The translations under genes and the position numbers were made by a program. 64,000 nucleotides of DNA from the IMG/VR virus record IMGVR_UViG_3300027914_001163, positions 127,434 to 191,433 of that record; one strand, 5' to 3'. The DNA comes from a virus. Taxonomy: Duplodnaviria; Caudoviricetes. Below the pieces are notes generated by a model that had not been told where the DNA came from, did not search any database, and saw only the letters and a list, made by a program, of their open reading frames with translations. Shown here one piece after another: positions 786-64,000 of the stretch; the first letter of the stretch is position 1, and every line of letters begins with the position of its first letter.

Positions 786-973
786 AAATAGATTTCAGAG
801 AAGGAATGAAGTGTCTCTCGTGCGGTAAACAGAATCACTTCGGAACAATTCATTTTGGAACATACGTCACGCTTGCCAATTACTGTTGTATCTGTGGCTT
901 CGCTGCTCAACTGGCCATTCCAGAAAGAGGATACTCGATTGAATATAGGGCGGTGAAAGATGATGAAGGTTAG
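782..973 (+). CDS. Small zinc-ribbon-like hypothetical protein
   Basis: CLSC...CCIC motifs; ATGA overlap with the upstream stop. Confidence 0.55.
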   Translation: MKIDFREGMKCLSCGKQNHFGTIHFGTYVTLANYCCICGFAAQLAIPERGYSIEYRAVKDDEG

Positions 974-1329
974 AACTCTTTGAAGCGCAACTGATCATTG
1001 TCGTTGGGTATTCGAATATGCCATCCCATGTCGTAATGATTCTCAATAAAAATATAATCCATGTTTTTAAAATCTTTTCTGTACTCTTCTATGATAGGAG
1101 TAAGTTTCTCAGCCAGACCTCGTAACTGAGATTTTGCCATTCTAATCAGCATACCGCCATAGTTCTTCGCCAGGAATTCATCCGTGTAATCTTTAAATGA
1201 AATTCCCTCTGCCTTGAGAACTTTTTGAATGTCTTTATATATGACTATGGGCGTGTGTAATTCAAACGTTTGAATAGTGTTATTCTTTGATTGCTGTACG
1301 ACTGCTTCAAGATAGTTATTGAAACTCAT
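970..1329 (-). CDS. Putative internal head protein with CTS-like leader (MSFNNYLE/A)
   Basis: Leader shared with neighbours; last gene of a tightly packed minus-strand array. Confidence 0.65.
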   Translation of the reverse strand: MSFNNYLEAVVQQSKNNTIQTFELHTPIVIYKDIQKVLKAEGISFKDYTDEFLAKNYGGMLIRMAKSQLRGLAEKLTPIIEEYRKDFKNMDYIFIENHYDMGWHIRIPNDNDQLRFKEF

Positions 1330-1618
1330 TGTAATAATCCTTCACGGTAATCATTGGATCGTATGTGAACAACCCATCTTTGATATAATAGAGTGATGAC
1401 GGAGAGGCTTTGAATACAATAATGTTTCCCTGGTACTTCCCAAGATAGTGCATCTCTCCGTGTATGTCCTTTCCGCCGTATGCTTTGATAATTTCAGCAG
1501 CTTTTGTGACAATCTTATTATCCAGGAAAAGATTTTTCATATGATACGCAAAATACTTATGCGATGGTTCAGGACGTTCTTTCTGCATGGTCTCTATGTA
1601 ATAGTTTAATGTTTTCAT
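1316..1618 (-). CDS. Putative internal head protein (MKTLNYYIE/T), AVH-family domain variant
   Basis: Leader, plus the family pattern IIKAYGGKDI...IVFKASPSSL...DYY. Confidence 0.65.
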   Translation of the reverse strand: MKTLNYYIETMQKERPEPSHKYFAYHMKNLFLDNKIVTKAAEIIKAYGGKDIHGEMHYLGKYQGNIIVFKASPSSLYYIKDGLFTYDPMITVKDYYNEFQ

Positions 1619-1995
1619 TAGAAGTCGTTGTAATCTGGATTATAAAAATTTCTAAATCGTATATACGGTTTTAGTCCTGGATAATCATAATCCAGTTCGC
1701 TTTGTAAAACATTGTATATCTTTTCTCGTATAGTTTCGAGTTTGCTTTTTTGAGATTTGAATGTATACTTTATTGAAGCATAATTCTTAACAGAACTTTG
1801 CCATTGGGTATTCTCAAGTGTTACGCCTGTTGATTCTATTGCCTTTTTAATATCACGATTTATTCTTTGGACATCTTCTTGGTTATTCTTTTTAGAAAGT
1901 CCTATGATTCCAAAGTTTACAATGCAGAACCATTTATCTATTCGTTCTGTTGGAGCCTGGTGTACGGCCTCAAGATAGTCGGTAAAGGTTTTCAT
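1618..1995 (-). CDS. Putative internal head protein, AVH family (MKTFTDYLE/AVHQAP)
   Basis: Leader followed by AVHxxP; stop/start overlaps with neighbours. Confidence 0.7.
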   Translation of the reverse strand: MKTFTDYLEAVHQAPTERIDKWFCIVNFGIIGLSKKNNQEDVQRINRDIKKAIESTGVTLENTQWQSSVKNYASIKYTFKSQKSKLETIREKIYNVLQSELDYDYPGLKPYIRFRNFYNPDYNDF

Positions 1996-2399
1996 TCTTC
2001 GATTCCCTTTCTTACTGTTTCGCCTAATTCATTTTTTTGTTTTTTAAAATTCCACTCTTCTTGCGGTTTATCTCCCCAAGCCAACACTTTGTAAAGATGA
2101 TTATGATCCAATCTATCTTGAAATCTAACTTCCTTTCCTTGTACTTTATCAATCCTTAAATAATCTTGAAGTTCTTTTAGGGTTTTAATAAGTTTATTTT
2201 GAGATATTTTAATATCCAACAATGATGAAGTTTTAGTCCATTGCCTTTTTCGAATAATAACTCCATTGTTTTCTATGATTTTGATTATTTCTGAATCTGG
2301 TTCTTGAGGATGATTAAATATTAAAACTTCAACAATATATGATTGTGAACGTTCAGGTGTTTGGTGTACGGCCTCAAGATAGTCATTAAAGGTTTTCAT
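1992..2399 (-). CDS. Putative internal head protein, AVH family (MKTFNDYLE/AVHQTP)
   Basis: Start moved to the ATG at 2399, which gives the family leader. Confidence 0.7.
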   Translation of the reverse strand: MKTFNDYLEAVHQTPERSQSYIVEVLIFNHPQEPDSEIIKIIENNGVIIRKRQWTKTSSLLDIKISQNKLIKTLKELQDYLRIDKVQGKEVRFQDRLDHNHLYKVLAWGDKPQEEWNFKKQKNELGETVRKGIEE

Positions 2400-2438
2400 G
2401 CATTGTAACATTCCAATTGTTATCGTGCGACTTTTGTG

Positions 2439-2819
2439 TTATCGTACCGTATCGATTCCCGGTGTCACGTTCTTATGTGTATAATAATTAACGATCTGAA
2501 TAAAGAACTTGCTCTTGAAAGGAATTATATTACGGTCATCATTCGCAAGTTTGGTATAGATGTCATTGATCGAAGACTCCGGTGCTTTAAATGTTACCGT
2601 CTTCATTTCTCTCTTCTGCGGATCATTCTTCGAGATTACCAACTCCAGGCGTACATCCTTTCCACCGGCTTCCTCAATGATTGCTTTGAACAATGGAAAG
2701 TCTTTGACATAATTGTTGTCATAGTTGCGTTTCCCTCCCAAGTACACACGATTCGGAATGAACCATTTCTCGGCCTTGGCGGGAGTTGTATGGACAGCCT
2801 CAAGGAAGTGTTTCAACAT
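2439..2819 (-). CDS. Putative internal head protein, AVH family (MLKHFLE/AVHTTP)
   Basis: Leader, plus IIEEAGGKDV...TFKAPESSI...NYY. Confidence 0.7.
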   Translation of the reverse strand: MLKHFLEAVHTTPAKAEKWFIPNRVYLGGKRNYDNNYVKDFPLFKAIIEEAGGKDVRLELVISKNDPQKREMKTVTFKAPESSINDIYTKLANDDRNIIPFKSKFFIQIVNYYTHKNVTPGIDTVR

Positions 2820-2820
2820 A

Positions 2821-4533
2821 TTAATCGTACCATGCTTCTATATTTACCGGACGATCAAGAAAAGAAGTAAGATAAATTCGAATATCTTCAATCTTGTCCT
2901 TCGGCAGTTTGATCTTGATTACCGGCTCCAGATAGGTTGAATGTAAAGTCGTGCTCGGAAAGGCATCGTCCGTATTGATATGATAATCAGCTTTTAAATG
3001 TTCGAGCACTTCCTCCAGGTCTTTATCACATTTTTCCTGGGCGTATTGATACCATTGCTCGTCCATCTTAATAAATGTTCTGCGCCATTTAATCTCATAC
3101 ATCTCCAATCGTGAAGGTGTTGCGTGGACTGCTTCGAGAAAACCTTTTTTCTTTAGTTCTCTGGTACGGTTAAACCAAGTAAGCAATTGAGTTTGGTCAG
3201 TGTAATAATTTCTTATCACCATATCAATATCTGGAATGCCCAATAACTTTTCGATTTTCTTGCCAACCAATATTCCAATACGCTCTGGATTATCTTGATA
3301 TTGCTTTGATGGACTCGTTTTAAACAACACCACCAAATAATCTTTCATATGTTCATAGTCATAATCAATGACCTTGACGTTGTTCTGTTCCAACGTTTTA
3401 ATTATTGTTTCGGTTATCTTCTTTCTTTTTTTCGCATCAGGTTCATGCCAGTGAGTGTAATAGAGATTCGCTTTCTCAGGCGCAGGAACAGAATGAACCG
3501 CTTCATTGTATCGTTTATCCTGTTGTTCCTTCAGTTGTTTCTTCTTATGATAATCGTAGTATTCCTGGACTGCGTGAACGTTGACGTGTATCTTAAACGA
3601 GTTAATGGTAAATGAATAGAATGCTTTCTCCACGGCGGCAGTAATATCTTTCACCTTCTGTTCAGGAGCCTTAAACGATGTTCTCCCGACTTCTTTCCAT
3701 AGACCCCCAATCCTCTCGGTACTTTCTTCTGTTTGAATATCTTTAGCATCTTGGCGTTTCAATATGAACTCCAGGCGTTCCTTGACTCGTTTATTGCTTT
3801 CTCTACCCATTGTTTCAAATTGAATCATCCACTTCTTTATAGACCCCGGTGCTGAGTGAACTGCTTCATGTATGGGGATTTCTTTGATGAGTTTTGGATT
3901 TTTGAATATTCCATTCTCGTGATACAGAGATACAAGCCTCATCTTATATCCAAACTTCTTATACAACAATTCTTCCAACTCTATGATCTTCTCTTTCGGC
4001 ATTTTCAATATGGCATAGTCATAGGTTTTCTTTGGCTCCGAGAAAGAACGCTCATCCTCGAAACGTTTAACCTCGACGTTCTTACAATAATCGATTGTCT
4101 TCAGATAATTAACGACAGACTCCGGACCTATACCGCTGCCGTACCAATACTCCACATAGAAGTTTTCCAGTTTGTTGACAACCGGATGTACTGCTTCATT
4201 GATTGGAATATCGGACTCTTTCATCTTGTGAAATGCGCCAGGTCCATAAATGTCTTCCAAGGCCATGTGTGTATCGCCAAATCTTTTGTTGAGTTCTTCT
4301 TCGATTTCTTTTATCTTTGTTTCAGGGACTCGCAACACAACCAGGTCAAATCGGTACTGCGGTTTATTCGGCACGGTAAATCTTCTCACCCGAACATCCT
4401 TGCAGTCTTTTATATTCTTGAGTTCTTTGGCTATATCATACAGGTCAAGCGCAACAGGATAATTGGTAACGATCACTCGTTTCCATACTTTATCTGAAGC
4501 CTGATGTACCGCTTCGAGAAAATTATTCAGCAT
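2821..4533 (-). CDS. Five-unit AVH-family polyprotein, putative internal head protein
   Basis: Start at ATG 4533 with a GGAG RBS (MLNNFLE/AVH). Internal INEAVH, IHEAVH, YNEAVH and FLEAVH occur every ~110-125 aa. Confidence 0.75.
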   Translation of the reverse strand: MLNNFLEAVHQASDKVWKRVIVTNYPVALDLYDIAKELKNIKDCKDVRVRRFTVPNKPQYRFDLVVLRVPETKIKEIEEELNKRFGDTHMALEDIYGPGAFHKMKESDIPINEAVHPVVNKLENFYVEYWYGSGIGPESVVNYLKTIDYCKNVEVKRFEDERSFSEPKKTYDYAILKMPKEKIIELEELLYKKFGYKMRLVSLYHENGIFKNPKLIKEIPIHEAVHSAPGSIKKWMIQFETMGRESNKRVKERLEFILKRQDAKDIQTEESTERIGGLWKEVGRTSFKAPEQKVKDITAAVEKAFYSFTINSFKIHVNVHAVQEYYDYHKKKQLKEQQDKRYNEAVHSVPAPEKANLYYTHWHEPDAKKRKKITETIIKTLEQNNVKVIDYDYEHMKDYLVVLFKTSPSKQYQDNPERIGILVGKKIEKLLGIPDIDMVIRNYYTDQTQLLTWFNRTRELKKKGFLEAVHATPSRLEMYEIKWRRTFIKMDEQWYQYAQEKCDKDLEEVLEHLKADYHINTDDAFPSTTLHSTYLEPVIKIKLPKDKIEDIRIYLTSFLDRPVNIEAWYD

Positions 4534-4930
4534 CTTTCTTCTTCTCCGCATACCATGTTTTATTTCTCTCGTAAACCAGTTCATTGGTATAATAGTCACA
4601 GATGCCAAACCAAGTTCGCATCTCTTTAATTACTTCCATGTTAGCCAGGTAATCCCACTTCTTTCCCAAGTTGATCGTGTTCCTGATATTAACTTCAATT
4701 TGTTGAAAGATTGAAGGATGACCATTAAATACAATGATCACACTATTCTTGCCGCTATTCGCCTTTACTGAACGTGCCTCTTCTTGAAGATTGGTTCCTC
4801 CGGCCTTCTTGATGGCTCTCTTCATAATGCCGACGATAGCATTCATATGAATATTATCATAACTGAAAAGATAATATCGCTTCTTGGTAGAGGGCGTGTT
4901 ATGAATTGCTTCGAGATACACGTTAAGCAT
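4523..4930 (-). CDS. Putative internal head protein, AVH family (MLNVYLE/AIHNTP)
   Basis: Leader, plus AIKKAGG...IVFNGHPSIF...DYY. Confidence 0.7.
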   Translation of the reverse strand: MLNVYLEAIHNTPSTKKRYYLFSYDNIHMNAIVGIMKRAIKKAGGTNLQEEARSVKANSGKNSVIIVFNGHPSIFQQIEVNIRNTINLGKKWDYLANMEVIKEMRTWFGICDYYTNELVYERNKTWYAEKKKDAE

Positions 4931-5279
4931 CTTTCTCTCCTGATTTTTCTTTTACTGATGAATGACGGCTGAATACCCAATCTTGCTTGTTGTATTTTCT
5001 ATATGCTTGAAATATTACTCTTATTGGAAGAAATGTTAATAATGCTTCTCTAACTCTTTCTAAAGAAGGAGGATCAATTTTAAATGAATATATTGCTCCT
5101 CCTCTCATACTCCAACCTACATAACTTGCATTATCCTTACCGCAGATATTTTCAAGGACTTCAACAATTTGATCATCTGTTATGTTTCCTATATGATCGG
5201 TATCTATCCAGAGTTCATACTGCTCGACAGGTTTGGGCGTTGTGTGTACCGCTTCGAGATAATGTTTAAATGTTTTCAT
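4923..5279 (-). CDS. Putative internal head protein, AVH family (MKTFKHYLE/AVHTTP)
   Basis: Leader motif. Confidence 0.7.
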   Translation of the reverse strand: MKTFKHYLEAVHTTPKPVEQYELWIDTDHIGNITDDQIVEVLENICGKDNASYVGWSMRGGAIYSFKIDPPSLERVREALLTFLPIRVIFQAYRKYNKQDWVFSRHSSVKEKSGEKDA

Positions 5280-5726
5280 TTATTTTCTTAATGCCTTACG
5301 ATATTCTTTTTGATATTTGAATATTTGAGTCCAATTAACTTTATCTTTCATTTCAATAATAAAATTTTTAGACATTTGAACATTTTTTGATACGACATTC
5401 CAATCAACAAAGTCTTTAAAATCTCGAATGAAGTCTTCAGGTAAAGTATAATAGGTGCAAAAGGTAGTCCAATCCATATTGTAAACATCATATGATCTAA
5501 AAGGAATGATTTCGGGTATAGTATCTTCCGAGGATTTAAAAAATATAATTCTGCCATTATCATATGTTTTAAGAACTTTCCCACCGCTTTTACCAAGAAG
5601 TATCAGTGCTTTGTTTTTCCAATAGATGTCCTCGTTTTTATTGTTGCTACTTGATACCATAATAAACTTTTTTGTTTTTTCTGGAACCTGGTGAACTGCC
5701 TCAAGATAATGTTTAAATGTTTTCAT
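5280..5726 (-). CDS. AVH-family protein with C-terminal tryptophan-repeat module
   Basis: MKTFKHYLE/AVHQVP; repeats LPEDFIRDFKDFVDW / MSKNFIIEMKDKVNW. Confidence 0.7.
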   Translation of the reverse strand: MKTFKHYLEAVHQVPEKTKKFIMVSSSNNKNEDIYWKNKALILLGKSGGKVLKTYDNGRIIFFKSSEDTIPEIIPFRSYDVYNMDWTTFCTYYTLPEDFIRDFKDFVDWNVVSKNVQMSKNFIIEMKDKVNWTQIFKYQKEYRKALRK

Positions 5727-6192
5727 TGTTCTTCCGTGCCAGGTCTTTAATCTTCTTATACGTTTCAGGCTTCATCTTGAGTTTGTACCGGATCATAACG
5801 TCTTCAGCAAACTGTCCCATATCAAAAAACAATTGTGAGACTTTTCCTTTAGGTTCAGGAATCAGTTGTTCACCGTTGTAGTAATCGAATATCAAGGTAT
5901 AATCCATTTCAGGCACGGTCGTAATTGCATTAAACAAATTATACAATATCGACCTGGGACATTTGATGATATACACAAAGAACCGTCCGTCACCAATTGA
6001 ATATTCTTTTAATCTTCCAGAGCCGTAATGATCAGTAACTTCATACCTGAGAACTTCGGCCTTGTATTCATCCAACTTATGCTTAACCTGTGGAATACCG
6101 GCAGCATCATGACACACACAGGAGATGACATACTTCTCCATTCTCTCTGGAGCCTGGTGTACGGCCTCAAGATAATAATCAAATGTTTTCAT
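5713..6192 (-). CDS. Putative internal head protein, AVH family (MKTFDYYLE/AVHQAP)
   Basis: Leader motif; IIKCPRSIL...FDYY. Confidence 0.7.
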   Translation of the reverse strand: MKTFDYYLEAVHQAPERMEKYVISCVCHDAAGIPQVKHKLDEYKAEVLRYEVTDHYGSGRLKEYSIGDGRFFVYIIKCPRSILYNLFNAITTVPEMDYTLIFDYYNGEQLIPEPKGKVSQLFFDMGQFAEDVMIRYKLKMKPETYKKIKDLARKNNENI

Positions 6193-6671
6193 TAGTCAGT
6201 ATCCAAATGATTATATTTATATTTAAACGACAGGGATACGTCTTGATAGCGCAGGATGTTATGCCAATCTACTTTATCTTTAAACTTCAAGATAAACTTC
6301 TCAGACATCTTACTGTATTTTGAAACAGAAGACCAATCAACGAAATCTTTGAAATCTCGAATGAATGATTCCGGCAGCTCCCAATCACTACAGAACTGTT
6401 TCCAATCCATTGTATATATATCATCGCAATCACCAAAAAGATAATCTTCAGGGGCGAGATTGGAAGGACATTTAAAAAATATAATCGTTCCATTATCTGC
6501 ATCTGCGCTTTTATATATCTTTAGTATTTCACTATTGGGAATTGATTTGATTTCTTGGAGAACTGAATCTCTTGTCTCTTCTTGCAAATCAAACGCTATG
6601 GTAATATATTTTTTAAATTTATCTGCTTGTACCTTGTGGACTGCTTCGAGATAATAATTAAACGTTCGCAT
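6192..6671 (-). CDS. AVH-family protein with tryptophan-repeat module, paralog of 5280-5726
   Basis: Start ATG 6671 gives MRTFNYYLE/AVH; repeats LPESFIRDFKDFVDW / MSEKFILKFKDKVDW. Confidence 0.7.
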   Translation of the reverse strand: MRTFNYYLEAVHKVQADKFKKYITIAFDLQEETRDSVLQEIKSIPNSEILKIYKSADADNGTIIFFKCPSNLAPEDYLFGDCDDIYTMDWKQFCSDWELPESFIRDFKDFVDWSSVSKYSKMSEKFILKFKDKVDWHNILRYQDVSLSFKYKYNHLDTD

Positions 6672-7446
6672 TATATATTTCTCCATTATCATACAAACGA
6701 TATACCGTATTATGAGTTCTGTCGTTTACTATATCAATAAATACGCCAGAAGAACGTTGCTCTTTGTCTTTTATTATTTGTTTAAGGAGATAATAAACTT
6801 TTTTATCAGACGTTTTGAGTCGTATTCTTGTTTGCATTCCTTGTTGTGATTCCTCTGTTATTTCAATATTGGAATGTTTTATGATTTGAATAATATGAGA
6901 GATAATATTTTCCAAATGATACTTAGCGACTACAGAACTATTGAAATAAACTTTTAAAAGATATTCTCTTTTCTGTTCCGGCTCAGTATGCACGGCCTCC
7001 AGGAAGATGTCAGGAATCTCTTCATCGGCCACCAGTTTCTTTGTATGAACCAATGTCACCGGCACTGCGCTGATAATGTCCGAAGGTTCAACTGTTCCAA
7101 CCTTTTTATACCATACGCCCTTGTTGCCAGCTTGAGACAATGGATCGTTTGTATCAACGACCCATTTGCCAGTCTTCTTGAATTTGATTATTGAAATCTT
7201 TCCGCTGCCGACTTCCTGGTTAAGACTCCAATCCATTCGAGCTGCCCACTGGATTGCATCTCGTTGGTGTTCGAATGCGTAAATCTCTCCCTTGCCGTAG
7301 CGTGTGAAATCTCCCTTAACCCAATTACTTGTCTGCATCATGACCAAGCCCTTCTTCTTGATCTTTGGAACATTGGAAGTTTTGGTTACATGATACAGAT
7401 ATTGTTCCTTGCCTTTAACGGCAGCTTCAAGATAATATTTAAGCAT
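6658..7446 (-). CDS. Two-unit protein: ADP-ribosyltransferase-like (Tpt1/KptA/DarT-type) domain plus AVH domain
   Basis: MLKYYLE/A leader; YLYHVT...VPKIKKKGL and GEIYAF motifs; internal IFLE/AVHTEP. Confidence 0.6.
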   Translation of the reverse strand: MLKYYLEAAVKGKEQYLYHVTKTSNVPKIKKKGLVMMQTSNWVKGDFTRYGKGEIYAFEHQRDAIQWAARMDWSLNQEVGSGKISIIKFKKTGKWVVDTNDPLSQAGNKGVWYKKVGTVEPSDIISAVPVTLVHTKKLVADEEIPDIFLEAVHTEPEQKREYLLKVYFNSSVVAKYHLENIISHIIQIIKHSNIEITEESQQGMQTRIRLKTSDKKVYYLLKQIIKDKEQRSSGVFIDIVNDRTHNTVYRLYDNGEIYNANV

Positions 7447-13987: not shown

Positions 13988-14356
13988 CTACGTTCCCCAT
14001 TTCGTATTATAAGCCGGTTCGAAGTCCTTATAATAATCATAGAACAGAACTTTTGTCAAGAGTTCTGATTGAATTTTTTCTTTTACTTTTTTAAAAATTG
14101 TCTGATCGCTTGGGGTTTTGAATACTATTCCAGTCCAATCTCCATCTACCTCAGTTCTGAGCCTGAAGTTGAATAAGACATTTTCTATATCCTTGGAGGT
14201 AACTCTGTTCACGCCGAATTCCTTCAGGATAGATTCTATTTTATTATAATCCGTATCTGAATGTTTCTTATTAAAAAGAACGACATACGTTTTAATTCTA
14301 TTAGTGTCAGGCGTGTTATGAACTGCTTCGAGATACTTCTGAAAGTTTCCTGTCAT
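13988..14356 (-). CDS. Putative internal head protein, AVH family (MTGNFQKYLE/AVHNTP)
   Basis: Start ATG 14356; ILKEFGV...IVFKTPS...YDYY; lies directly downstream of the portal. Confidence 0.7.
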   Translation of the reverse strand: MTGNFQKYLEAVHNTPDTNRIKTYVVLFNKKHSDTDYNKIESILKEFGVNRVTSKDIENVLFNFRLRTEVDGDWTGIVFKTPSDQTIFKKVKEKIQSELLTKVLFYDYYKDFEPAYNTKWGT

Positions 14357-57008: not shown

Positions 57009-57365
57009 ATGAGCGAATTATTTCATAAATATCTTGAAGCTGCACAAAAGAAAACAAAAGAGAAAGAATCAAAAGAAAAAGTTAAAACTCAAATTGTTCC
57101 GGCAAGCCAGAAAGAACTTGTATCAAGCGAAGAAGATATTGATACCATTGCCAAAAAAATAGTCTGCGAGAACGAACCTGACAACGATAAAAAGATTTCA
57201 AAGTTTATCGGTTGCGCCAAGAAAAAGAACTTCTCACCCGAAGACATCCTGGGGGCTATTGAAAGAATTTTCAAAGCGAACATCGCAGACATAACCGAAA
57301 AGTACGCACAGGATTTAGGACTGCAAGAAAAACCAAAAGCAGAGAATAAAAAGGAGAATAAATAA
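57009..57365 (+). CDS. Putative internal head protein (MSELFHKYLE/A)
   Basis: Leader motif; AGGAG RBS. Confidence 0.65.
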   Translation: MSELFHKYLEAAQKKTKEKESKEKVKTQIVPASQKELVSSEEDIDTIAKKIVCENEPDNDKKISKFIGCAKKKNFSPEDILGAIERIFKANIADITEKYAQDLGLQEKPKAENKKENK

Positions 57366-57703
57366 TGGCTACCAAATTTAATGAATACCTTGAAAGAATT
57401 TTAAATGAAGATAATTTTTTCAAATCAGAATTTACAATCAGCAAAATAAACGATGCTGACGCATGGAAAAAGATTTGCCAAGGAACATCATGGGATTCAG
57501 CACACGCTGGAGAATATTTAAAAAGGGGACCGGCATATCTCGTCAGAAAAGGAAATGCCAAATTTGCACTATTACACCCTGCGACTGATGCCGCTTACGA
57601 TACTTCTGATCGTGCTCTCGATGCAACTACTAAAGCAAAATTTTTCAAAATGATCAAACAAGGAAACTTTAAGTCAATTACAAACAAACCGCAAGGAGAA
57701 TAA
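57365..57703 (+). CDS. Putative internal head protein (MATKFNEYLE), minimal WCT-like domain
   Basis: Leader; AWKKICQGTSW...YLKRGPAYLV resembles the WCT domain core. Confidence 0.6.
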   Translation: MATKFNEYLERILNEDNFFKSEFTISKINDADAWKKICQGTSWDSAHAGEYLKRGPAYLVRKGNAKFALLHPATDAAYDTSDRALDATTKAKFFKMIKQGNFKSITNKPQGE

Positions 57704-57706
57704 ATA

Positions 57707-58060
57707 ATGAGCGAAACATTTCATAAATACCTTGAGATGGCTGAAGTCGCCACGACAACCATTAAAACAAAACGTGGCGTGGGTATTAAATATCATAATA
57801 CCGTAGTGGTTGAAATACTTCCTGACGGCGGATATGTCCTGGACAGCGGCGGATGGAGAACTTCAACAACCAAAAAGCGCATGAACAAATATATCGACCG
57901 TGAATTTTCTGTTGTTCAAAAGCATAACGAATGGTTTGTTAAAACTCCAAAAGGAGAATTCCCTTTCGAAGATGGAATGGAAATAAAAGCAAACGGCCAG
58001 GTAGTCAATGCTTCTGAAGAGGAAAATGATAATCCAGAACCAGAAGAAGAAAAGAAATAA
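57707..58060 (+). CDS. Putative internal head protein (MSETFHKYLE/M)
   Basis: Leader; YHNTVVV...LDSGGWRTSTTKKRMN domain seen in phage hypotheticals. Confidence 0.65.
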   Translation: MSETFHKYLEMAEVATTTIKTKRGVGIKYHNTVVVEILPDGGYVLDSGGWRTSTTKKRMNKYIDREFSVVQKHNEWFVKTPKGEFPFEDGMEIKANGQVVNASEEENDNPEPEEEKK

Positions 58061-58264
58061 ATGCACAAACGAGTGGCGCATATTGTAGCCGGAACTTCGG
58101 TGCAATGCCCCAAATGTAATTCAACCGAAGTTTTTATGAAAGTCATGGGGAAAGCAACTCACAAGGTTTCAATCAAGGATTACAGTTGCAAACAATGTCA
58201 AATCGTCTTTACGGTTACTGATCGCTGGCAGGAAAGAGGAATTTTAAGAACGTATACCTTTTAA
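58061..58264 (+). CDS. Small zinc-ribbon protein
   Basis: CPKC...YSCKQC. Confidence 0.6.
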   Translation: MHKRVAHIVAGTSVQCPKCNSTEVFMKVMGKATHKVSIKDYSCKQCQIVFTVTDRWQERGILRTYTF

Positions 58265-58461
58265 GCCTTCTCGACAATACGTTGAGCAATTTTTACGGCT
58301 TCCTGTTCATCTTTGATATACTGCAACGTTTCCTTTAAAGCCATCTCAACTAATTCATCAAACGAAGTACCCTTCTCCTTAAAGGGTTTTATTTTTTGTG
58401 CGATTTCCTGTTCTTTGGCTTCATCACGGATCATTTCATAATAGTAGTCAAAAAGGCTCAT
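58261..58461 (-). CDS. Putative internal head protein (MSLFDYYYE/M)
   Basis: Leader variant; AGGAG RBS on the minus strand. Confidence 0.55.
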   Translation of the reverse strand: MSLFDYYYEMIRDEAKEQEIAQKIKPFKEKGTSFDELVEMALKETLQYIKDEQEAVKIAQRIVEKA

Positions 58462-58553: not shown

Positions 58554-58760
58554 ATGGCTAAAGGAAAATTTAATTCATATCTTGAAATGACTCGCATGGA
58601 TACATCAGAAAAATTGTATCAAGAACTCGTCAAGATCATATCAGATAAAACAGTTCTGCGTACTGTGTATAGTCTGGCTGTCGAGTACGGTGAGGCAAAG
58701 CACAAAGAGGGTTACAACGAAGGATATGAACATCACAAAAAATGGCCACAGAAAAAATAA
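58554..58760 (+). CDS. Putative internal head protein (MAKGKFNSYLE/M)
   Basis: Leader motif. Confidence 0.6.
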   Translation: MAKGKFNSYLEMTRMDTSEKLYQELVKIISDKTVLRTVYSLAVEYGEAKHKEGYNEGYEHHKKWPQKK

Positions 58761-58818: not shown

Positions 58819-59508
58819 ATGAACACAATTGAACATTTCGAATCGTTGCAGCCGAAACGCACGAAAGACGGACGGTTGCGAAGCGATGTTGCCAGAAGCG
58901 CAATAGCAAAAGGTAAAACAGGTGAACGTGCTCTTACTGATATTCTCACTAAAATATCAGGAGTTCCGTTTATTCGAATACCAAACTCTGGAGCCAGGGT
59001 CGGTCTCACCAACCGAGATCGCATTCATCAATTTACTGAGCACCAGGTAGAAAGTATGTTGGGAGATATTTTCCCACCGCATGAATTAAGGTATCATATG
59101 ATTATCGAGAGTAAGAATTATGCGTCTCTTGCTTTTAAGAAACTCTCTCAAGGCAAACTACCAGCTCTACTTGAAGAATGGATAAGTGAAATTTTATATG
59201 ATATTGAAAGCTATTTAATATTCAAAGAACGATACAAAAGAAAAATCAGAGAACCGCTTGGATTCCTTGGATTTAAAATAACAAAGCAAGGAACCTGGAT
59301 AGCGTATAGTAAAACTTATTTTGAAAAACTCTGTCTTGATAAATTCAATCCAACCTACACCGTGCTTTATAGAAACATAAGCCCCAGGCTTGAACAGATC
59401 GGTTATGGTATGGAGTGGTACATTGAAGATTTTAAAACTTTCGTCATCAACAATAAAATCAATATGTTTGAATTAAGCCCGGATGCGCAAGATGAAAAAG
59501 CAATTTAA
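58819..59508 (+). CDS. PD-(D/E)XK nuclease, Holliday-junction-resolvase-like
   Basis: KGKTGER...RIPNSGA...GDI...IESK motif order. Confidence 0.75.
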   Translation: MNTIEHFESLQPKRTKDGRLRSDVARSAIAKGKTGERALTDILTKISGVPFIRIPNSGARVGLTNRDRIHQFTEHQVESMLGDIFPPHELRYHMIIESKNYASLAFKKLSQGKLPALLEEWISEILYDIESYLIFKERYKRKIREPLGFLGFKITKQGTWIAYSKTYFEKLCLDKFNPTYTVLYRNISPRLEQIGYGMEWYIEDFKTFVINNKINMFELSPDAQDEKAI

Positions 59509-59845
59509 AACCTACTTGGAAGCAAGACAATATCCACAACGAGTCACAAAATGGTACGTTGATGATTCAGAAATGTTTTATACTCAAGTTAAAAATGGTT
59601 ATTATAAAAACATTCCCATTATGATCCAAGCAATTGAGAAAGCCGGTGGAACAAAAACAAAAGTAGAACACAAATACGGTTGGGATAACCAACCTCAAGT
59701 TATCGTGTTTACTGCTCCCATGTCGATCATACCAAACATAGAAGTTGAAATAGCAAAAGCCTTAGACATCTACCCCGCTCGTCGTCCAAAAATAGAAGAC
59801 TATTACTCTGTTTGGGACTTAAAAGTTCCTGAAGCAGATCGATAA
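59492..59845 (+). CDS. Putative internal head protein, AVH-family domain (MKKQFKTYLE/A)
   Basis: AIEKAGG...IVFTAPMSII...EDYY. Confidence 0.7.
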   Translation: MKKQFKTYLEARQYPQRVTKWYVDDSEMFYTQVKNGYYKNIPIMIQAIEKAGGTKTKVEHKYGWDNQPQVIVFTAPMSIIPNIEVEIAKALDIYPARRPKIEDYYSVWDLKVPEADR

Positions 59846-59927: not shown

Positions 59928-59954
59928 GGTAATTAAGAAGATAGTTAAAGGAGA

Positions 59955-62155
59955 GTGAACATGTATTCTTTAGATACTCTGCGCAATGTCAACGCCAAGG
60001 CTGAACTCAGACATTACATGGAAGAACACCCAATGATTCAAATCAACGTGCCAGAAGATGCCCTGAAATCTCCAGACTATTCAGAAGTTAACAAACGGCT
60101 TCTGGAGGCAACGGCCAACATGGAAGAAGTTGAAGAATTTTTCGTTGATTCCAGTGGCCTCGGATCGGATTCAGAACCGGCCATGACTGTCAAAAGATTT
60201 CTAAACAAAGTACAGATCATGATTGATGAGGCAAAGGAGCACAATGAAAAATTGTACTCATGCATAACTGGCGCAGGGCAATTCCAAGTATATGTCGCTT
60301 TTTTTAAACAAGTGCATTAACAGCACTTGTTTGGTGTGAATATATTCTAAAGGAGAAATATATGTTATCCAAAGTCACAGATTTCATTATCAAGTTTGAA
60401 AGTGGCGGATGCGCTAACGAAGAAGAAATCTTTGAGGGCTTTCAAATGCTTCTCGATGAAGATGTCCTTTTCAAACTTCAAGGATTCTATGGACGCATGG
60501 GAATGCAAATGCTTGAGCGTGGCTTCATTCATCTTCCGAAAGATCGGAAAGTGCTCGATGCATACGGCAATGAAGTAACCGTGGGGATGGTGCAGTAGCA
60601 CCGTCTCGGTTTGATATAAAGGAGGAGTGAGATGAAAAACATTTATAAAGAAGCACTCGACGTTCAAGATGCTTGCAACTCATCTGGAGTTATTCATTCT
60701 CTATCAAGAGCAATGGAAGAAATCTGGAAAGAGGCACGAGAGAAAAACCTCGGAACGGAATATGTCAATCAGCATCCAGTCGTCAAAATGTTTCTGACCA
60801 AACTGTGCGATCTGGCAAAAATGGATTCTGAATTTCCATCGAAAGCCTATGATGAGTGTTATGAAAAATCTCTTGAGGCCATTCCTGCACCGGCTGAACC
60901 AAATGAACAGAGCACGGCGAGGCAATAACTGCCTCGGTGAACAAAGGAGTGAGTTATGGAACTGAAAGATAAAAAAATTTTTCTTATAACCAACATCGAT
61001 CTATTGGACGACTATGATATTGATCCAGTGATCTTGCGTACTGTACAAAAGAAATTCCTGCATGATACCGGATACCATCTTGAAGATTCATTTTCGAATT
61101 TTAAAGTTGAGGCTTTTAAATTCGAGTATGTCAAAAATCAAAGTTTTGATTATGATGTATTGCGTATTAACTTTGAGAAACATCTTCAAACATTTCAGTT
61201 AACCAAAAAAGAACTTGACGTTAAATACGCCATGCATACAACACGAGCATGGTATTGGATGCGCATTGAGAAAGCACCCCATACCATCTGGATTAAGGAG
61301 CACGGCTTGAGCAATGTTTTCTACATGATGGACTATATTCTCAACGGCAATCTCCCGAATGATTTTGCCAGAGCCAATAAACTCATGGATGATAACGGCT
61401 TAAATTACAGTTCGACTTTTACCAATCAAAGCATCAAAGGATTGGAACCGCTCAAGATGACCGTCTTTAAAAACGGAAATATTAAACTCCTCGGATTAAG
61501 TGAGAAACAATACGAGGAGATTGCTAATATATTAAGGATACTGGAGTTGTGATATGAACAAAGACTGCCAATTGCAAATGCGACTTACCAAAGAAGTCAA
61601 GGGACACGCACTGGAATTGGCCTCATTGAACGAATCAAACATGACTGAATTGATTGAAAAAGTAATTGAACTATTATATAGCAATATTACAGGCTTGAGA
61701 AAATTGCAGTCGGCTTTTCAAGAGAAACATAACTTTGTAATTAAACTCGATCAAATGATCGATCTGGCTCTCAACGAAATGATTCAAAACAACTGCAAGG
61801 AGGAGTGATGGGACGAGACACTATATGGGATGATGAAAAATTAAAAATTCTCAATGAACTGGCAACATATGGCAAGGCTTTGGTATTGCAAAACGGAAAC
61901 CGAAAGACAATACCGTGGAAGCAAGTGATAAAAGACAATCCGAAACTCTGCAAACAATTGGGTAACCTGTCGGCCAGTTCTTTATCTCGTGCATGGAATC
62001 ATTATCAATTTGTGGCAGTCGGCAAATGTTATTTCTTCAAGCGATGCGGTAACATGCGTGAGAACGGTACGATATATTGCGCTGAGTGTAAAGAGAGGCA
62101 TAACCACAATGCAAAGCAATATTATAAACCGGTACGGAAGAGGAAGAACAAATGA
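59955..62155 (+). CDS. Early-type hypothetical genes: 59955-60320, 60362-60598, 60632-60928, 60956-61552, 61554-61808 (ribbon-helix-helix-like), 61805-62155 (Cys-rich C-terminus)
   Basis: GGAG RBSs; QLQMRLTKEVK...A......MTELIE pattern in 61554-61808. Confidence 0.6.
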
Positions 62156-63115
62156 AAGAATATTTTCAAGCACTATTGGAAGGAGCAGATGATCTCGTTA
62201 TTTTAAACTACAAAGGACGTGTTGTAAAAGATTTAAAACATTCCAAAAGTAGATTTCATGAGAGATTTCCTGGAATTCCAGATTCTAAATACTTCGACAT
62301 CCTAAAAAAAGGAATAGATACCATTATGGATGTCTTTAAAGACAACGGCGGAAAGTATGTTGTTGTTAACAAAAAAAGCAACATAGCCATTCAATTGGAT
62401 TGGCGAAAAGAGAAATTTTCAGATAGTAAAACCAATCATGGCTTCACGGCTACTACGTTGGATTATTTGCAACATAAGAATATGCTCCAGTATGATACTA
62501 AGATATTCGTAGAACAATTGTTACCCGATCTTGAAGAAACACTTTATTTGGAGGATTGCCCTAACTATAAAATGCTTGTCAAAGGTGGACAGCAGTATAG
62601 AACATTTATAGTTATAGAGGTATAAAATGAAAATCAAGAAAGAACAAATGATCACCATGAAACAGGGTATAGACATTATACAGGATGTCTTCGACGGAAA
62701 GAACGGACACTATCTTGTTATCGATAAGGCCAAGCACTATGGCATCAGGATCGATTGGCAAAATGACAACGCCGGATATTCGATCATGCGCCCCAATGAA
62801 AAAAGCATGTTCCCTGATCACATCAAGATATTTGTTGAAGAGGGAAAGCGTTATTACCGGCATGACTATGAGCCTATCAGCAACGACAAGAGGATTTCTG
62901 ATGTTGGCTTTATGCCCAACGACCTGGCGATCATGTTTCAAAACGACATGAATGATCAAGGCGGAGTGCTCGAATGGATGAATGAGGGAAATATATTCGT
63001 GATCATGGCTAATATCGGCTACTATGACGTTGAGCTGCCGGAGTGTGATGGCTACAAGATTTATCTCAAAGAAGGATATGTGTATCAGAACTTCAATGTG
63101 ACGACTGTTGAATGA
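62152..63115 (+). CDS. Tandem paralog pair (62152-62625, 62627-63115)
   Basis: Shared GID.I.DVF....G.Y.V..K.....I..DW, KIFVE and C..YK...K.G..Y..F.V..V. Confidence 0.7.
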
Positions 63116-63944
63116 GGAGAACACCAATGTTAAAATTTAAAAACAGTTATGATGAAGGAAAAGAATTATTTGATAAGGCGCACCAACATGAACCTCAATT
63201 CTATCTTGAAAGTGGCCGTGCTCGTATGCTGCAAATGCTCAATGGAGTTGTTCCTCGTGTGCACACTTTTGGCATAATTACGGCTGAAAATCCCTTGGGG
63301 AAAGAACTGCCCACTAAGGAAAATCAAGAACGAAATAAAAAATTAGAACAACGCCTTAAAGACGGCAATTTCGGATATAGACAAATTATAGGAAAATATG
63401 GAAATATTGAAAACCCATTTTTGATCAACAACATTCATCAAGATGCTTTACGAAAACTTGCCGTGGAATATGAACAGGAATCTTATATTCATGCCGTTAA
63501 ACAATTTACCAAAGACGGCAATCCCTATATCAAGTTCACCTATTACATACAAAATTTTGATGAGGATGTCAATCGGAACAGAAAAGGGCGTGGAAATTTC
63601 CATATCGTTTCGGAACGTTTTGTTTATAGGGATGCCACAAATAAAGAAGATTACTATTCTGAATATATGGGAAAAAAATTTATTATTCCATTTTTTGATG
63701 ATGATGACGAGTCAAAAGCAAAAATGATCGGCGGAAAGATAATATTTGAGGAATCAGACTTGGATACTTCAGAAAAAAGAATGTTGGCCGAAGAAATAAA
63801 CGACCAATGCCACATGTTGTGTTTCAACGACCATGATAACGGAATGGGAACATGGGGTAGGAGGGGAATCGTTAAAGTGCAATTGGCAAAATTGCGACAG
63901 TTGATTGAAGGATAATCAGAACTTCAATGTGACGACTGTTGAAT
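63084..63944 (+). repeat. 30-bp perfect direct repeat (63084-63113 and 63915-63944) flanking one gene
   Basis: ATCAGAACTTCAATGTGACGACTGTTGAAT occurs twice. Confidence 0.92.
63127..63915 (+). CDS. DUF3293-like protein with FYLE/S site
   Basis: FGIITAENP.G....KENQERNKKL...L......Y....GKYG..E..F.I...YEQES motif; GAGGAG RBS before ATG 63127. Confidence 0.6.
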   Translation: MLKFKNSYDEGKELFDKAHQHEPQFYLESGRARMLQMLNGVVPRVHTFGIITAENPLGKELPTKENQERNKKLEQRLKDGNFGYRQIIGKYGNIENPFLINNIHQDALRKLAVEYEQESYIHAVKQFTKDGNPYIKFTYYIQNFDEDVNRNRKGRGNFHIVSERFVYRDATNKEDYYSEYMGKKFIIPFFDDDDESKAKMIGGKIIFEESDLDTSEKRMLAEEINDQCHMLCFNDHDNGMGTWGRRGIVKVQLAKLRQLIEG

Positions 63945-63957
63945 AAAGAAGGCTGTG

Positions 63958-64000
63958 ATGAAGAAGAAAACATTGAATAATTATCTGGAAGATGTCTTTT
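63958..64000 (+). CDS. Start of another CTS-leader gene (MKKKTLNNYLE/D...), truncated by the window edge
   Basis: ATG at 63958 reads MKKKTLNNYLEDVF. Confidence 0.5.
   Translation, partial: MKKKTLNNYLEDVF

What the first reader, a model, noticed from the sequence alone, without database searches (positions are those of the whole stretch)
970..64000. About 34 genes share a T4-type capsid-targeting leader: a very large packaged, protease-matured cargo system
Seen: about 34 ORFs with unrelated or highly diverged bodies start M-x(1-5)-[FL]-x-x-Y-[LIFM]-E followed by A/S/M/D. Examples are MKTFKHYLEA, MKTFNDYLEA, MSLKYYLEA, MSELFHKYLEA and MATKFNEYLE. There are 12 at 970-7446(-), one at 13988, 12 at 16557-25080(+), one at 39856, six at 57009-59845, plus 62152 and 63958. 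The early-type gene blocks lack the leader. Known: T4 internal proteins IPI-III carry a ~10-aa capsid-targeting sequence (MKTYQEFIAE) that the gp21 protease removes after Glu. They are injected with the DNA, and IPI* inhibits the GmrSD restriction enzyme. A gp21-like protease is encoded here at 27995. Inference: this phage addresses about ten times more genes to its head than T4's three IPs, forming a modular injected-effector library (anti-defence or host takeover).
Basis: partly seen in the sequence, partly recalled or inferred. Interest (0 to 1): 0.93.

Follow-up and report, generated by a model that had tools for sequence, protein, structure and literature searches.

The report
Capsid-cargo leader on 48 phage genes
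An uncultured T4-like phage from wastewater starts about 48 of its genes (34 in this window, 12.5% of its DNA) with a short tag closely resembling the one T4 uses to load three proteins into its head, so it probably packs a very large, fast-changing set of proteins into the virion, though no experiment has shown this.

Summary
34 genes in the window, and at least 47-48 in the 191-kb genome, begin M-x(1-5)-[FL]-x-x-Y-[LMIF]-E, usually followed by Ala. That is 50 N-terminal matches against about 3 expected.

- The phage is a distant T4 relative. It encodes an S77 (gp21-type) prohead protease with the catalytic His and Ser conserved.
- The conserved aromatic residues lie at leader positions 4 and 7, the positions shown to target the T4 leader to the capsid. 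The leader ends in hydrophobic-x-Glu.
- Four proteins are chains of 2-5 units joined at [IYF]-x-E|[AS]VH.
- The large proteins repeat the motif at their C-terminus, after an AE|D site like the one in the capsid protein.
- A relative with 66-69% identical head proteins also has about 30 leader genes but shares only 1 of 47 bodies.
- One body family (Pfam Kyano_Gp96) occurs elsewhere both with and without the leader.
- Synonymous codons are scrambled, so selection acts on the peptide.

One correction: about half the bodies are not unrelated. They form a single hyper-divergent ~100-aa "AVH" domain with a beta-alpha-beta-beta-alpha-beta fold.

Packaging, cleavage, injection and an anti-defence role are all untested. 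The principle is published for T-even phages, and this scan has noted similar leaders in other uncultured T4-like phages. The scale, the polyproteins and the two-ended tags are the new parts.

The parts
970..1329 (-). leader gene, 119 aa, MSFNNYLE|AVV; AVH-type body
1316..1618 (-). leader gene, 100 aa, MKTLNYYIE|TMQ
1618..1995 (-). leader gene, 125 aa, MKTFTDYLE|AVH; AVH domain used for the structure model
1992..2399 (-). leader gene, 135 aa, MKTFNDYLE|AVH
2439..2819 (-). leader gene, 126 aa, MLKHFLE|AVH (short leader)
2821..4533 (-). 570-aa chain of five AVH units; MLNNFLE|AVH, then junctions PINE|AVH, PIHE|AVH, RYNE|AVH, GFLE|AVH
   Evidence: 5 matched stretches to the AVH profile
4523..4930 (-). 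leader gene, 135 aa, MLNVYLE|AIH
4923..5279 (-). leader gene, 118 aa, MKTFKHYLE|AVH
5280..5726 (-). leader gene, 148 aa, MKTFKHYLE|AVH
5713..6192 (-). leader gene, 159 aa, MKTFDYYLE|AVH
6192..6671 (-). leader gene, 159 aa, MRTFNYYLE|AVH
6658..7446 (-). 262-aa two-unit protein, MLKYYLE|AAV, internal junction IFLE|AVH near residue 150
13988..14356 (-). leader gene, 122 aa, MTGNFQKYLE|AVH, directly downstream of the portal gene on the same strand
14458..16470 (-). portal protein (gp20-like)
   Evidence: PHROG 213, 4e-50
16557..16976 (+). leader gene, 139 aa, MKVLEFYLE|ASR
16994..17398 (+). leader gene, 134 aa, MSSRFREYLE|KTY
17398..17760 (+). leader gene, 120 aa, MNLSRYLE|AKH; AVH-type body
17757..18101 (+). 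leader gene, 114 aa, MSLKYYLE|AVH
18115..19728 (+). large-family protein, 537 aa, MFNIYLE|YLY..AKEALI; C-terminus VIAE|D-VNIFERYL
19730..20134 (+). leader gene, 134 aa, GTG start, MSYFQYYME|MAS
20136..21974 (+). large-family protein, 612 aa, MNIFTTYIE|AKEALI; C-terminus TNE|D..NIFDKY
21974..23539 (+). large-family protein, 521 aa, MRNIFSYYLE|ADG; C-terminus HAE|D..SLLEKYL
23541..23774 (+). leader gene, 77 aa, MNVFQGHYFE|ASD
23847..24566 (+). 239-aa two-unit protein, MIGLQYYFE|AKH, internal junction EFLE|SVH
24563..24838 (+). leader gene, 91 aa, MSLFNYYLE|SVN
24835..25080 (+). weak leader gene, 81 aa, MSHFKQYLKKAYLE|RE
27995..28672 (+). prohead protease, gp21 / Peptidase_S77 family; catalytic His (DHP) and Ser (VSSRG) conserved; N-terminus YISE|A
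28748..29707 (+). candidate scaffold/core protein (acidic, repetitive, lies between protease and capsid gene); starts MDFLKILE|N; KYLE|ES site conserved as KYME|G in the relative
   Evidence: no similarity to T4 gp22
29741..31342 (+). major capsid protein (gp23 family); LIAE|DQI aligns with the T4 gp23 segment FLTE|AEIGG
39856..41019 (+). large-family protein, 387 aa, MFNIYLE|YLY..AKEAII, inside the neck/head-completion module
57009..57365 (+). leader gene, 118 aa, MSELFHKYLE|AAQ; basic body
57365..57703 (+). leader gene, 112 aa, MATKFNEYLE|RIL
57707..58060 (+). leader gene, 117 aa, MSETFHKYLE|MAE; body is Pfam Kyano_Gp96, a family found elsewhere with and without the leader
58261..58461 (-). 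leader gene, 66 aa, MSLFDYYYE|MIR
58554..58760 (+). leader gene, 68 aa, MAKGKFNSYLE|MTR; the only body with a homologue in the relative
59492..59845 (+). leader gene, 117 aa, MKKQFKTYLE|ARQ; AVH-type body
62152..62625 (+). weak leader gene, 157 aa, MKEYFQALLE|GAD
63958..64000 (+). start of a leader gene, MKKKTLNNYLE|DVF, cut by the contig end

Best explanation
The leader is this lineage's version of the T4 capsid-targeting sequence.

Proposed mechanism. The 7-13 residue peptide, with its two conserved aromatic or hydrophobic positions (F/L, then Y three residues later), docks the new protein onto the scaffolding core while the prohead assembles. The S77 prohead protease (27995-28672) then cuts after the Glu of [Y/F/I]-x-E. 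This removes the leader, and in the large proteins also a C-terminal copy of it. It also cuts the 2-5-unit chains into single ~100-aa domains. The mature bodies stay in the head with the DNA and are probably released into the host cell on infection.

The cargo. It comprises about 48 genes. About half are copies of one hyper-divergent AVH domain. The rest are unrelated small proteins plus a family with a conserved ~200-aa N-domain and variable C-terminal parts. The cargo set turns over completely between related phages while the address stays the same.

What is shown and what is inferred. Shown here: the motif, its statistics and placement, the protease family and its catalytic residues, the junction motifs, the turnover of bodies, the modular presence or absence of the leader, and selection at the peptide level. 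Inferred: binding to the core, cleavage, retention in the head, ejection, and any anti-defence role.
For: 1. The phage is a distant T4 relative. It has a gp23-family capsid protein, a gp20-like portal and an S77 protease with His and Ser invariant against T4 gp21.
2. In the T4 leader, targeting maps to residues 4 and 7 and processing to residues 8 and 10, and gp21 cuts after L/I-x-E, first seen as a Glu-Ala bond (PMC9026906). T4 ipII and ipIII both start MKTYQEFIAE in the T4 record. Here F/L and Y, three residues apart, are the best conserved positions. In the commonest 9-10 residue leaders they fall at positions 4 and 7 or 5 and 8. They are followed by an aliphatic residue, Glu, then mostly Ala. 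Ten leaders start MKT.
3. Four proteins are chains joined at PINE|AVH, PIHE|AVH, RYNE|AVH, GFLE|AVH, IFLE|AVH, EFLE|SVH and DFKYFLE|T. A homologue from another metagenome has the junction FYVE|AVH.
4. The capsid protein has LIAE|DQ aligned with the T4 gp23 segment FLTE|AE, and the site is conserved in the relative. The three largest of the four large leader proteins end in [AN]-E|D followed by NIFxxY(L) or SLLEKYL, a C-terminal copy of the motif. This recalls the two-ended processing of T4 Alt.
5. Twelve leader genes lie directly upstream of the head operon on the same strand, and one lies directly after the portal gene. In the relative, five lie between the protease and scaffold genes.
6. The relative (protease 68-69% and capsid protein 66-69% identical) has about 30 leader genes, yet only 1 of 47 bodies has a homologue there, against 89 of 244 other ORFs (Fisher P 2e-7).
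7. The Kyano_Gp96 body occurs elsewhere with the leader, with a stub (MTYLE|AV) and with no leader. An AVH homologue elsewhere carries a leader with T4 spacing, MKTLDQYITE.
8. The mature AVH domain folds confidently without the leader (pLDDT 86.7).
9. Synonymous codons after the cut site match chance (382 observed, 383 expected), so the constraint is on the peptide.
Against: There is no proteomic, N-terminal or expression evidence. The phage is uncultured and no RNA run was listed.

The P3 residue is Tyr, whereas the published gp21 motif has Leu/Ile. The Glu also falls one residue earlier than in the T4 leader, so cleavage at that site is extrapolated.

The candidate scaffold protein is assigned only by position and composition.

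About 20 leader genes (57009-64000 together with genome 408-5889) lie far from the head genes, among small accessory genes, and I could not assign them a promoter class.

Half the bodies are paralogues, so for those genes the shared N-terminus could simply be inherited. The Leu codon of the leader is CTY in 32 of 35 cases, against 38% genome-wide, which points to shared descent of the leaders.

Forty-eight cargo species is far more than any T4-like virion proteome known to me.
Confidence: 0.7

Rival explanations
1. The proteins are targeted to the prohead and cut, but they are not injected effectors. They act as core or scaffold-like fillers, or as DNA-condensing internal proteins. They are either degraded and expelled like T4 gp22, gp67 and gp68, or they stay in the head as structural internal proteins with no role in the host cell.
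For: The mature bodies are mildly basic (median pI 8.5 against 6.9 for other ORFs). One body in the relative is a Lys/Ala-rich basic peptide. The candidate scaffold protein itself starts with a leader-like MDFLKILE. No body has a recognisable enzymatic or inhibitor fold.
Against: Structural fillers would not be expected to turn over completely between phages whose head proteins are 66-69% identical. They would also not be expected to expand into about 25 hyper-divergent copies of one domain. That pattern is typical of arms-race proteins, as published for the T-even internal proteins (PMC3012670; IPIII).
Confidence: 0.2
2. The shared N-terminus is only the inherited start of gene families that expanded by tandem duplication, and it has no addressing function.
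For: About 19 genes share the AVH domain and four share the large-family N-domain. The Leu codon bias (CTY in 32 of 35) suggests the leaders descend from one ancestor.
Against: The leader also heads bodies from unrelated families (Kyano_Gp96, DUF3175, the large family, many orphans). Within the Kyano_Gp96 family it is present, shortened or absent. Inside the polyproteins only the x-E|AVH junction recurs, not the F-x-x-Y part. The leader is the only conserved segment when the bodies are below 25% identity, and it persists in a relative that shares none of the AVH bodies. A copy of the motif also sits at C-termini.
Confidence: 0.08
3. The leader is a recognition tag for some other machinery, such as a modifying enzyme (as this scan proposed for a radical-SAM-linked tag in phage RB43), a chaperone, a secretion or degradation system, or a translation-level signal in the mRNA.
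For: Shared N-terminal tags on unrelated phage proteins are not always capsid signals (earlier finding e1-127136). The genome does encode one radical-SAM protein.
Against: The radical-SAM gene lies at genome 55.1-55.6 kb, at least 49 kb from any leader array. The leader is short and charged and has no signal-peptide character. Synonymous sites are randomised, which argues against an RNA-level element. The motif ends in the Glu-Ala type of bond cut by this protease family, and it recurs at domain junctions and just after AE|D sites.
Confidence: 0.05

Closest known systems
Phage T4 internal proteins IPI, IPII and IPIII with their 10-residue capsid-targeting sequence, removed by the gp21 prohead protease (Mullaney and Black 1996, via PMC9026906 and PMC3012670)
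   Same: N-terminal leader of about 10 residues, often starting MKT. Aromatic residues three apart, with targeting mapped to positions 4 and 7 in T4. An aliphatic residue and then Glu, followed by Ala. The same protease family with the same catalytic residues. Bodies diverse and polymorphic between relatives. Genes partly beside the head genes.
   Different: About 48 genes instead of 3. The Glu falls one residue earlier, with Tyr at P3 (Y-L-E against I-A-E). Half the cargo is a single expanded AVH domain family. There are multi-unit chains and C-terminal motif copies. Nothing has been shown experimentally here.
T4 Alt (packaged ADP-ribosyltransferase processed at both ends by gp21; PMC9026906)
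   Same: Large (390-610 aa) leader proteins. Three of the four appear to have a removable peptide at both termini.
   Different: No ADP-ribosyltransferase or any other recognisable fold was found. The C-terminal peptide repeats the N-terminal motif, which is not described for Alt in the papers I read.
Inner-body and ejection proteins of giant phages phiKZ, 201phi2-1 and SPN3US, cut by gp21-related proteases (PMC9026906, PMC7411985)
   Same: Many (about 19 or more) head proteins cut after Glu by a diverged gp21 homologue. Paralogous internal protein families. A large protein mass packed with the DNA.
   Different: The motif there is S/A-x-E with no conserved N-terminal address peptide. Those phages are a different lineage, with virion RNA polymerases and a T=27 capsid. 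Here the address is a defined linear motif.
Other uncultured T4-like phages noted earlier in this scan (e1-3862018, e1-5862810, e1-5826867, e1-6033753)
   Same: T4-style leaders on a dozen to over a hundred proteins, and polyproteins jointed at protease motifs.
   Different: Those are AI notes on other DNA that I did not check. Their leaders and cargo differ (MIKLKDLLKE; enzyme cargo). The AVH family and the C-terminal motif copies are specific to this lineage.

Membership tests
T4-type capsid-targeting sequence / internal-protein system | N-terminal peptide of about 10 residues whose residues 4 and 7 (aromatic in T4) carry the targeting information | tested here: met
   F/L in 44 of 46 and Y in 43 of 47, three residues apart. 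They fall at positions 4 and 7 in the 17 nine-residue leaders and at 5 and 8 in the 16 ten-residue ones. The T4 mapping is from PMC9026906.
T4-type capsid-targeting sequence / internal-protein system | Leader ends in the gp21 cleavage motif L/I-x-E, with the cut after Glu | tested here: inconclusive
   Glu is present in 46 of 47 and is followed by Ala in 26. However, P3 is Tyr, not Leu/Ile. The internal junctions have I-N-E, I-H-E, Y-N-E and F-L-E, and the capsid protein has I-A-E. The specificity of this protease is unknown.
T4-type capsid-targeting sequence / internal-protein system | A gp21-family (Peptidase S77) prohead protease with catalytic His and Ser is encoded | tested here: met
   Pfam PF03420 at 7e-11 and PHROG 207 at 2e-23; PDB 5JBL at 1e-10; His (DHP) and Ser (VSSRG) invariant in the alignment with T4 gp21.
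T4-type capsid-targeting sequence / internal-protein system | A scaffolding core (gp22-like) to which the leader binds | tested here: inconclusive
   An acidic, repetitive 319-aa protein lies between the protease and capsid genes, as gp22 does in T4. It has no Pfam or PHROG hit and no similarity to T4 gp22.
T4-type capsid-targeting sequence / internal-protein system | Bodies are diverse and polymorphic between related phages while the leader is kept | tested here: met
   Only 1 of 47 bodies is found in a relative with 66-69% identical head proteins, and that relative has about 30 leader genes of its own. The Kyano_Gp96 family occurs with and without the leader.
T4-type capsid-targeting sequence / internal-protein system | Proteins are present in the mature head with the leader removed, and are ejected with the DNA | not testable with these tools
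   The phage is uncultured. No proteome and no RNA run were available.
phiKZ-type inner-body / ejection proteins | Cleavage at S/A-x-E without a conserved N-terminal address; phiKZ-like core genes such as virion RNA polymerase | tested here: not met
   The cleavage-type motif here has a hydrophobic or aromatic P3 and there is a defined leader. The head genes belong to the T4 gp20/gp21/gp23 families. I did not search for virion RNA polymerase genes.
Radical-SAM-linked N-terminal tag (earlier finding e1-127136) | Tagged genes are encoded within a few genes of the radical-SAM/SPASM enzyme | tested here: not met
   The single Radical_SAM match is at genome 55125-55550, at least 49 kb from every leader array.

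The most novel reading that the evidence does not exclude
The phage uses a general, position-independent address-and-cut code. The F-x-x-Y-L motif, placed at either terminus next to a Glu cut site, with x-E|AVH joints between units, would load a library of about 48 exchangeable proteins into the head. About 25 hyper-diversified copies of one small AVH scaffold would act as injected binders or inhibitors of host defences. That would amount to a phage 'effector repertoire' on the scale of bacterial secretion-system effector sets, taking up an eighth of the genome.
Probability: 0.3. Interest if true: 0.8.

Novelty: new variant of a known kind. Interest (0 to 1): 0.62.

Why it matters
If the leader works as in T4, this phage shows how far the "load it into the head" principle can be pushed. 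An eighth of the genome would be pre-made proteins delivered with the DNA, ahead of any phage gene expression. That is the right timing to disarm first-line host defences.

The finding gives a concrete list of candidate injected proteins. It includes a new, fast-evolving ~100-aa domain family that could be screened for anti-defence activity.

It also suggests three design rules of practical use for T4-based protein-delivery vectors: a 7-10 residue tag, use at either terminus, and protease-cut joints that let several cargoes ride behind one tag. Finally, it offers a simple sequence rule for finding virion cargo in uncultured T4-like phages.

Tried and rejected
1. Late promoter: the T4 late promoter TATAAATA is not enriched (29 found, 33 expected) and does not precede the arrays. 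TTATAGAATTT lies upstream of the scaffold gene, of the gene heading the minus-strand array and of 58819, but three sites are too few to call a late promoter. The sigma-70 and terminator scan was uninformative (71 found, 58 expected).
2. NYLE|H in the capsid protein is not the maturation site. It is not conserved in the relative (NYMT), and T4's FLTE|AE aligns with LIAE|DQ instead.
3. The leader DNA is not a recent gene-conversion or cassette-recombination site. Same-codon use at identical residues is 382 against 383 expected after the cut site, and only 58% against 51% within the leader.
4. The DNA pattern for F..YLEAVH in IMG/VR gave 11 hits, all chance hits in non-start contexts.
5. Function of the bodies: Pfam and PHROGs give only DUF3175, Kyano_Gp96 and unnamed PHROGs. 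The AVH model matches only generic ferredoxin/ACT-like folds (TM about 0.5). The large-family model has no Foldseek match, and its best VIA match is Z 6.2 to p32/gC1qR, which is within noise.
6. Genomic context of the outside homologues P0036 and P0038 could not be obtained.
7. No RNA holder was listed. Laying four DNA runs gave only short contigs at 2-4x depth, nearly all identical to the window, so nothing was learned about cassette variation between strains.
8. Megablast against deposited phages found no near relative.

Full report
WHAT THE WINDOW IS

The window is the last 64 kb of a single 191,433-bp viral contig with 38% G+C. CheckV estimates the record at 83% complete, and its ends do not join in frame.

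The contig encodes these head and related proteins:
- a gp23-family major capsid protein at 29741-31342 (Pfam Gp23 2.7e-55; 27-28% identical to T-even gp23);
- a gp20-like portal at 14458-16470(-);
- a Peptidase_S77 prohead protease at 27995-28672;
- a tail sheath at 43339-46854;
- gp46/gp47-like nuclease subunits at 49669-52972(-).

It is therefore a distant member of the T4 superfamily. No deposited phage is close at the DNA level. Low-depth pieces, nearly all identical to the window, occur in wastewater and anaerobic-digester runs from four studies.

THE OBSERVATION

Scanning every possible start codon shows that the motif is real and sits at the stated places:
- 12 genes at 970-7446(-);
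- one gene at 13988(-);
- 12 genes at 16557-25080(+);
- one gene at 39856;
- six genes at 57009-59845;
- one gene at 62152;
- a truncated gene at 63958 (MKKKTLNNYLE|DVF).

Outside the window the same genome has 11 more at 408-5889 and three at 125109-126162. That makes 47 complete genes totalling 7,968 codons, or 12.5% of the genome.

The six-residue core occurs 50 times within the first nine residues of called ORFs, against about 3 expected from its internal frequency (P about 2e-42).

Counted back from the Glu, the logo is:
- F/L at -5 (44 of 46);
- Y at -2 (43 of 47);
- L/M/F/I/Y at -1;
- E (46 of 47);
- then A (26), M (8) or K (4).

Leader length up to the Glu is 9 residues in 17 genes, 10 in 16, and 7-8 in 10.

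ARE THE BODIES UNRELATED?

Only partly.

BLASTP of the bodies gives 38 clusters for 47 proteins. An alignment of the proteins that continue A-V-H after the Glu, however, reveals one hyper-divergent family of about 100 aa. Identity is 15-27%, with the pattern AVHxxP...K[WY]-strand...helix...FKxP...helix...[DN]YY.

AlphaFold2 on that alignment gives a confident beta-alpha-beta-beta-alpha-beta domain (mean pLDDT 86.7, pTM 0.82). It resembles only generic ferredoxin/ACT-like domains in the PDB and BFVD.

A profile search of 1.84 billion representative proteins finds 20 proteins. Seventeen of them match this phage's own proteins in length, and the 239-aa one (P0034), checked by sequence, is the product of 23847-24566.

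Counting the repeats inside multi-unit proteins, there are about 25 AVH units in about 19 genes.

A second family consists of four large proteins (387, 521, 537 and 612 aa). They share a conserved N-domain of about 200 aa and have variable C-terminal parts. Metagenomic homologues carry ankyrin repeats or DUF6496 instead.

The other 20 or so bodies are small orphans, apart from one Pfam Kyano_Gp96 member (57707-58060) and one DUF3175 member (genome 3772-4029).

EVIDENCE THAT THE LEADER IS AN ADDRESS-AND-CUT PEPTIDE

1. Protease. The S77 protease aligns with T4 gp21 and its crystal structure 5JBL. The catalytic His and Ser are invariant.

2. Parallel with the T4 leader. For T4 the first 10 residues of IPIII suffice for packaging. 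Targeting depends mainly on residues 4 and 7 and processing on residues 8 and 10, and gp21 cuts after L/I-x-E, first seen as a Glu-Ala bond (PMC9026906). The T4 record encodes MKTYQEFIAE twice, at ipII and ipIII (the same sequence string occurs in PMC8442874, which one search lists for 'capsid targeting sequence'). Here the two best conserved positions are aromatic or hydrophobic and three residues apart. They are followed by an aliphatic residue, Glu and then Ala, and ten leaders start MKT. One difference remains: the Glu comes one residue earlier, which makes Tyr the P3 residue.

3. Polyproteins. Four proteins are chains of units:
- The 570-aa protein at 2821-4533(-) is five AVH units. Each begins AVH and each is preceded by PINE, PIHE, RYNE or GFLE.
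- 6658-7446 has an internal IFLE|AVH.
- 23847-24566 has an internal EFLE|SVH.
- Genome 814-1590 has an internal full leader, DFKYFLE|T.
- A 263-aa homologue from another metagenome has FYVE|AVH between two units.
At these joints only the hydrophobic-x-E|A part recurs, not the F-x-x-Y part. That is what one expects if the Glu site is for cutting and the upstream part is for addressing.

4. Head proteins. T4 gp23's FLTE|AEIGG aligns with LIAE|DQI in this capsid protein. From my own knowledge FLTE|AEIGG is the gp23 maturation site; I did not check this in a paper. The site is conserved as LIAE|DQV in the relative. The candidate scaffold protein has KYLE|ES, which is KYME|G in the relative, and it starts MDFLKILE.

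5. Two-ended tags. Three of the four large proteins (the 387-aa one does not) end in VIAE|D-VNIFERYL, TNE|D..NIFDKY or HAE|D..SLLEKYL. That is an AE|D site like the capsid protein's, followed by a C-terminal copy of the leader motif. T4 Alt and probably gp21 are processed at both ends. A short motif that works at either terminus is hard to reconcile with its being part of a fold.

6. Placement. Twelve leader genes lie directly upstream of the head operon on the same strand. One follows the portal gene and one lies in the neck module (adaptor PHROG 211 at 36467-37240). In the relative, five leader genes lie between the protease and scaffold genes.

7. Turnover of bodies. The only close relative found is IMGVR_UViG_3300026161_000373 (205 kb; protease 68-69% and capsid protein 66-69% identical). 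It has about 30 leader genes of its own, with the typical form M-S-K-F-K-E-Y-L-E. Yet only 1 of the 47 bodies has a tblastn match there, against 89 of 244 other ORFs (Fisher P 2e-7). More distant relatives (capsid protein 29-32% identical) show at most one T4-type leader gene within the up-to-10-kb flanks fetched around the capsid gene, for example MIRFKEFISE|A.

8. Modularity. Homologues of the Kyano_Gp96 body occur in three forms:
- with the full leader (MSDTFKQYLE|M, MSRFEQYME|K);
- with a stub (MTYLE|AV);
- with no leader at all.
One AVH homologue elsewhere has a leader with exact T4 spacing, MKTLDQYITE.

9. Level of selection. TAT/TAC, GAA/GAG and the four Ala codons all occur at the conserved positions. 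Same-codon use at identical residues equals the codon-usage expectation after the cut site (382 against 383) and is only slightly raised within the leader (58% against 51%). The excess comes from Leu, which is CTY in 32 of 35 leaders against 38% genome-wide (P 6e-11). This suggests that the leaders descend from one ancestor, not that an RNA or DNA element is being conserved.

MOST LIKELY MECHANISM

This is inferred by analogy with T4. The leader docks the protein onto the assembling scaffolding core. The protease, active only inside the prohead, cuts after the Glu. That removes N-terminal and C-terminal tags and cuts the chains into single domains. The mature bodies remain with the DNA.

T4 packs about 1,000 internal-protein molecules (PMC3012670). 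One copy of each of the 47 proteins here adds up to about 0.9 MDa. My own rough estimate is that some tens of copies of each would fit a comparable mass budget.

Ejection and an anti-defence role are suggested only by analogy with T4. IPI* inhibits GmrSD, and IPIII is needed on E. coli ECOR17. The arms-race-like turnover of bodies points the same way.

RIVAL EXPLANATIONS

- Inherited paralogue N-terminus. This explains the AVH genes. It does not explain the leader on unrelated families, its presence or absence within one family, the C-terminal copies, or its persistence through complete turnover of bodies.
- A tag for another enzyme. This scan proposed a radical-SAM enzyme for an RB43 tag. Here the only radical-SAM gene lies at least 49 kb from any array, so linkage does not support this reading.
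- Head-targeted but structural, or degraded instead of injected. I cannot exclude this, and I keep it at about 0.2.

COMPARISON WITH WHAT IS KNOWN

[quoted passage not shown] 1994; PMC9026906). The scan's notebook also holds similar unverified notes on other uncultured T4-like phages.

The new points are:
- the scale, about 48 genes and an eighth of the genome, with about 30 in the sister phage;
- the expansion of one orphan domain into about 25 copies;
- the multi-unit chains with x-E|AVH joints;
- the C-terminal motif copies;
- the variant motif, Y-L-E with the Glu one position earlier.

I therefore class it as a new variant of a known kind. Everything beyond the sequence level remains to be shown.

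TOOL AVAILABILITY

Noticed in passing
window 31877(-), 35902(-), 48016(+); genome 97088, 106947: A near-identical promoter-like element, AAAAAGTTGACAAATTATCATAC, occurs five times in this form; TTGACAAAT occurs seven times in all. It stands ahead of the leaderless blocks 31831(-), 35854(-) and 48089(+). It is probably the phage's early, host-sigma-70-type promoter.
   Followed up: partly
window 7935(-), 28724(+), 58784(+): The motif TTATAGAATTT lies upstream of the scaffold gene, upstream of the 142-aa gene that heads the minus-strand leader array, and upstream of 58819. It is a possible late-promoter core, but there are too few sites to judge. The T4 late motif TATAAATA is not enriched.
   Followed up: partly
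window 18115-19728, 20136-21974, 21974-23539 (C-termini): The three largest of the four large leader proteins end in [AN]-E-D followed by NIFxxY(L) or SLLEKYL, a C-terminal copy of the leader motif. The metagenomic homologue P0002 has NIFDHFL at the aligned position, followed by a DUF6496 tail.
   Followed up: yes
window 14458-16470(-), portal residues about 520-590: The portal protein has a long Pro/Ala/Gly/Glu-rich low-complexity insert near its C-terminus.
   Followed up: no
window 43339-46854: The tail sheath protein is 1,171 aa. Only residues 612-1165 match the sheath profile, which leaves about 600 N-terminal residues unexplained.
   Followed up: no
window 9611-9686: An intergenic imperfect palindrome (AAGGGTATAGCCTTAT ... 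ATAAGGTTATACCCTAA) lies between two small plus-strand genes.
   Followed up: no
relative G001 92678-93115: One ORF carries two full leaders 26 residues apart (MSKFKEYLES...MSKFKEYLEA). It is either a fused pair of cargo genes or a mis-called start.
   Followed up: no
window 25274-25831 and 25846-26463: Two proteins with predicted hydrophobic membrane-like segments lie between the leader array and the head genes. They might act in membrane-associated prohead initiation, as T4 needs for portal assembly.
   Followed up: no
window 63958-64000 and genome 1-407: The contig ends do not join in frame, since a stop follows directly. Together with the 83% completeness estimate this means the record is incomplete, and more leader genes may lie in the missing part.
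   Followed up: partly
window 18-785: A PP-loop ATPase (SGGKDS motif, PAPS-reductase-like) converges on the 3' end of the minus-strand leader array.
   Followed up: no
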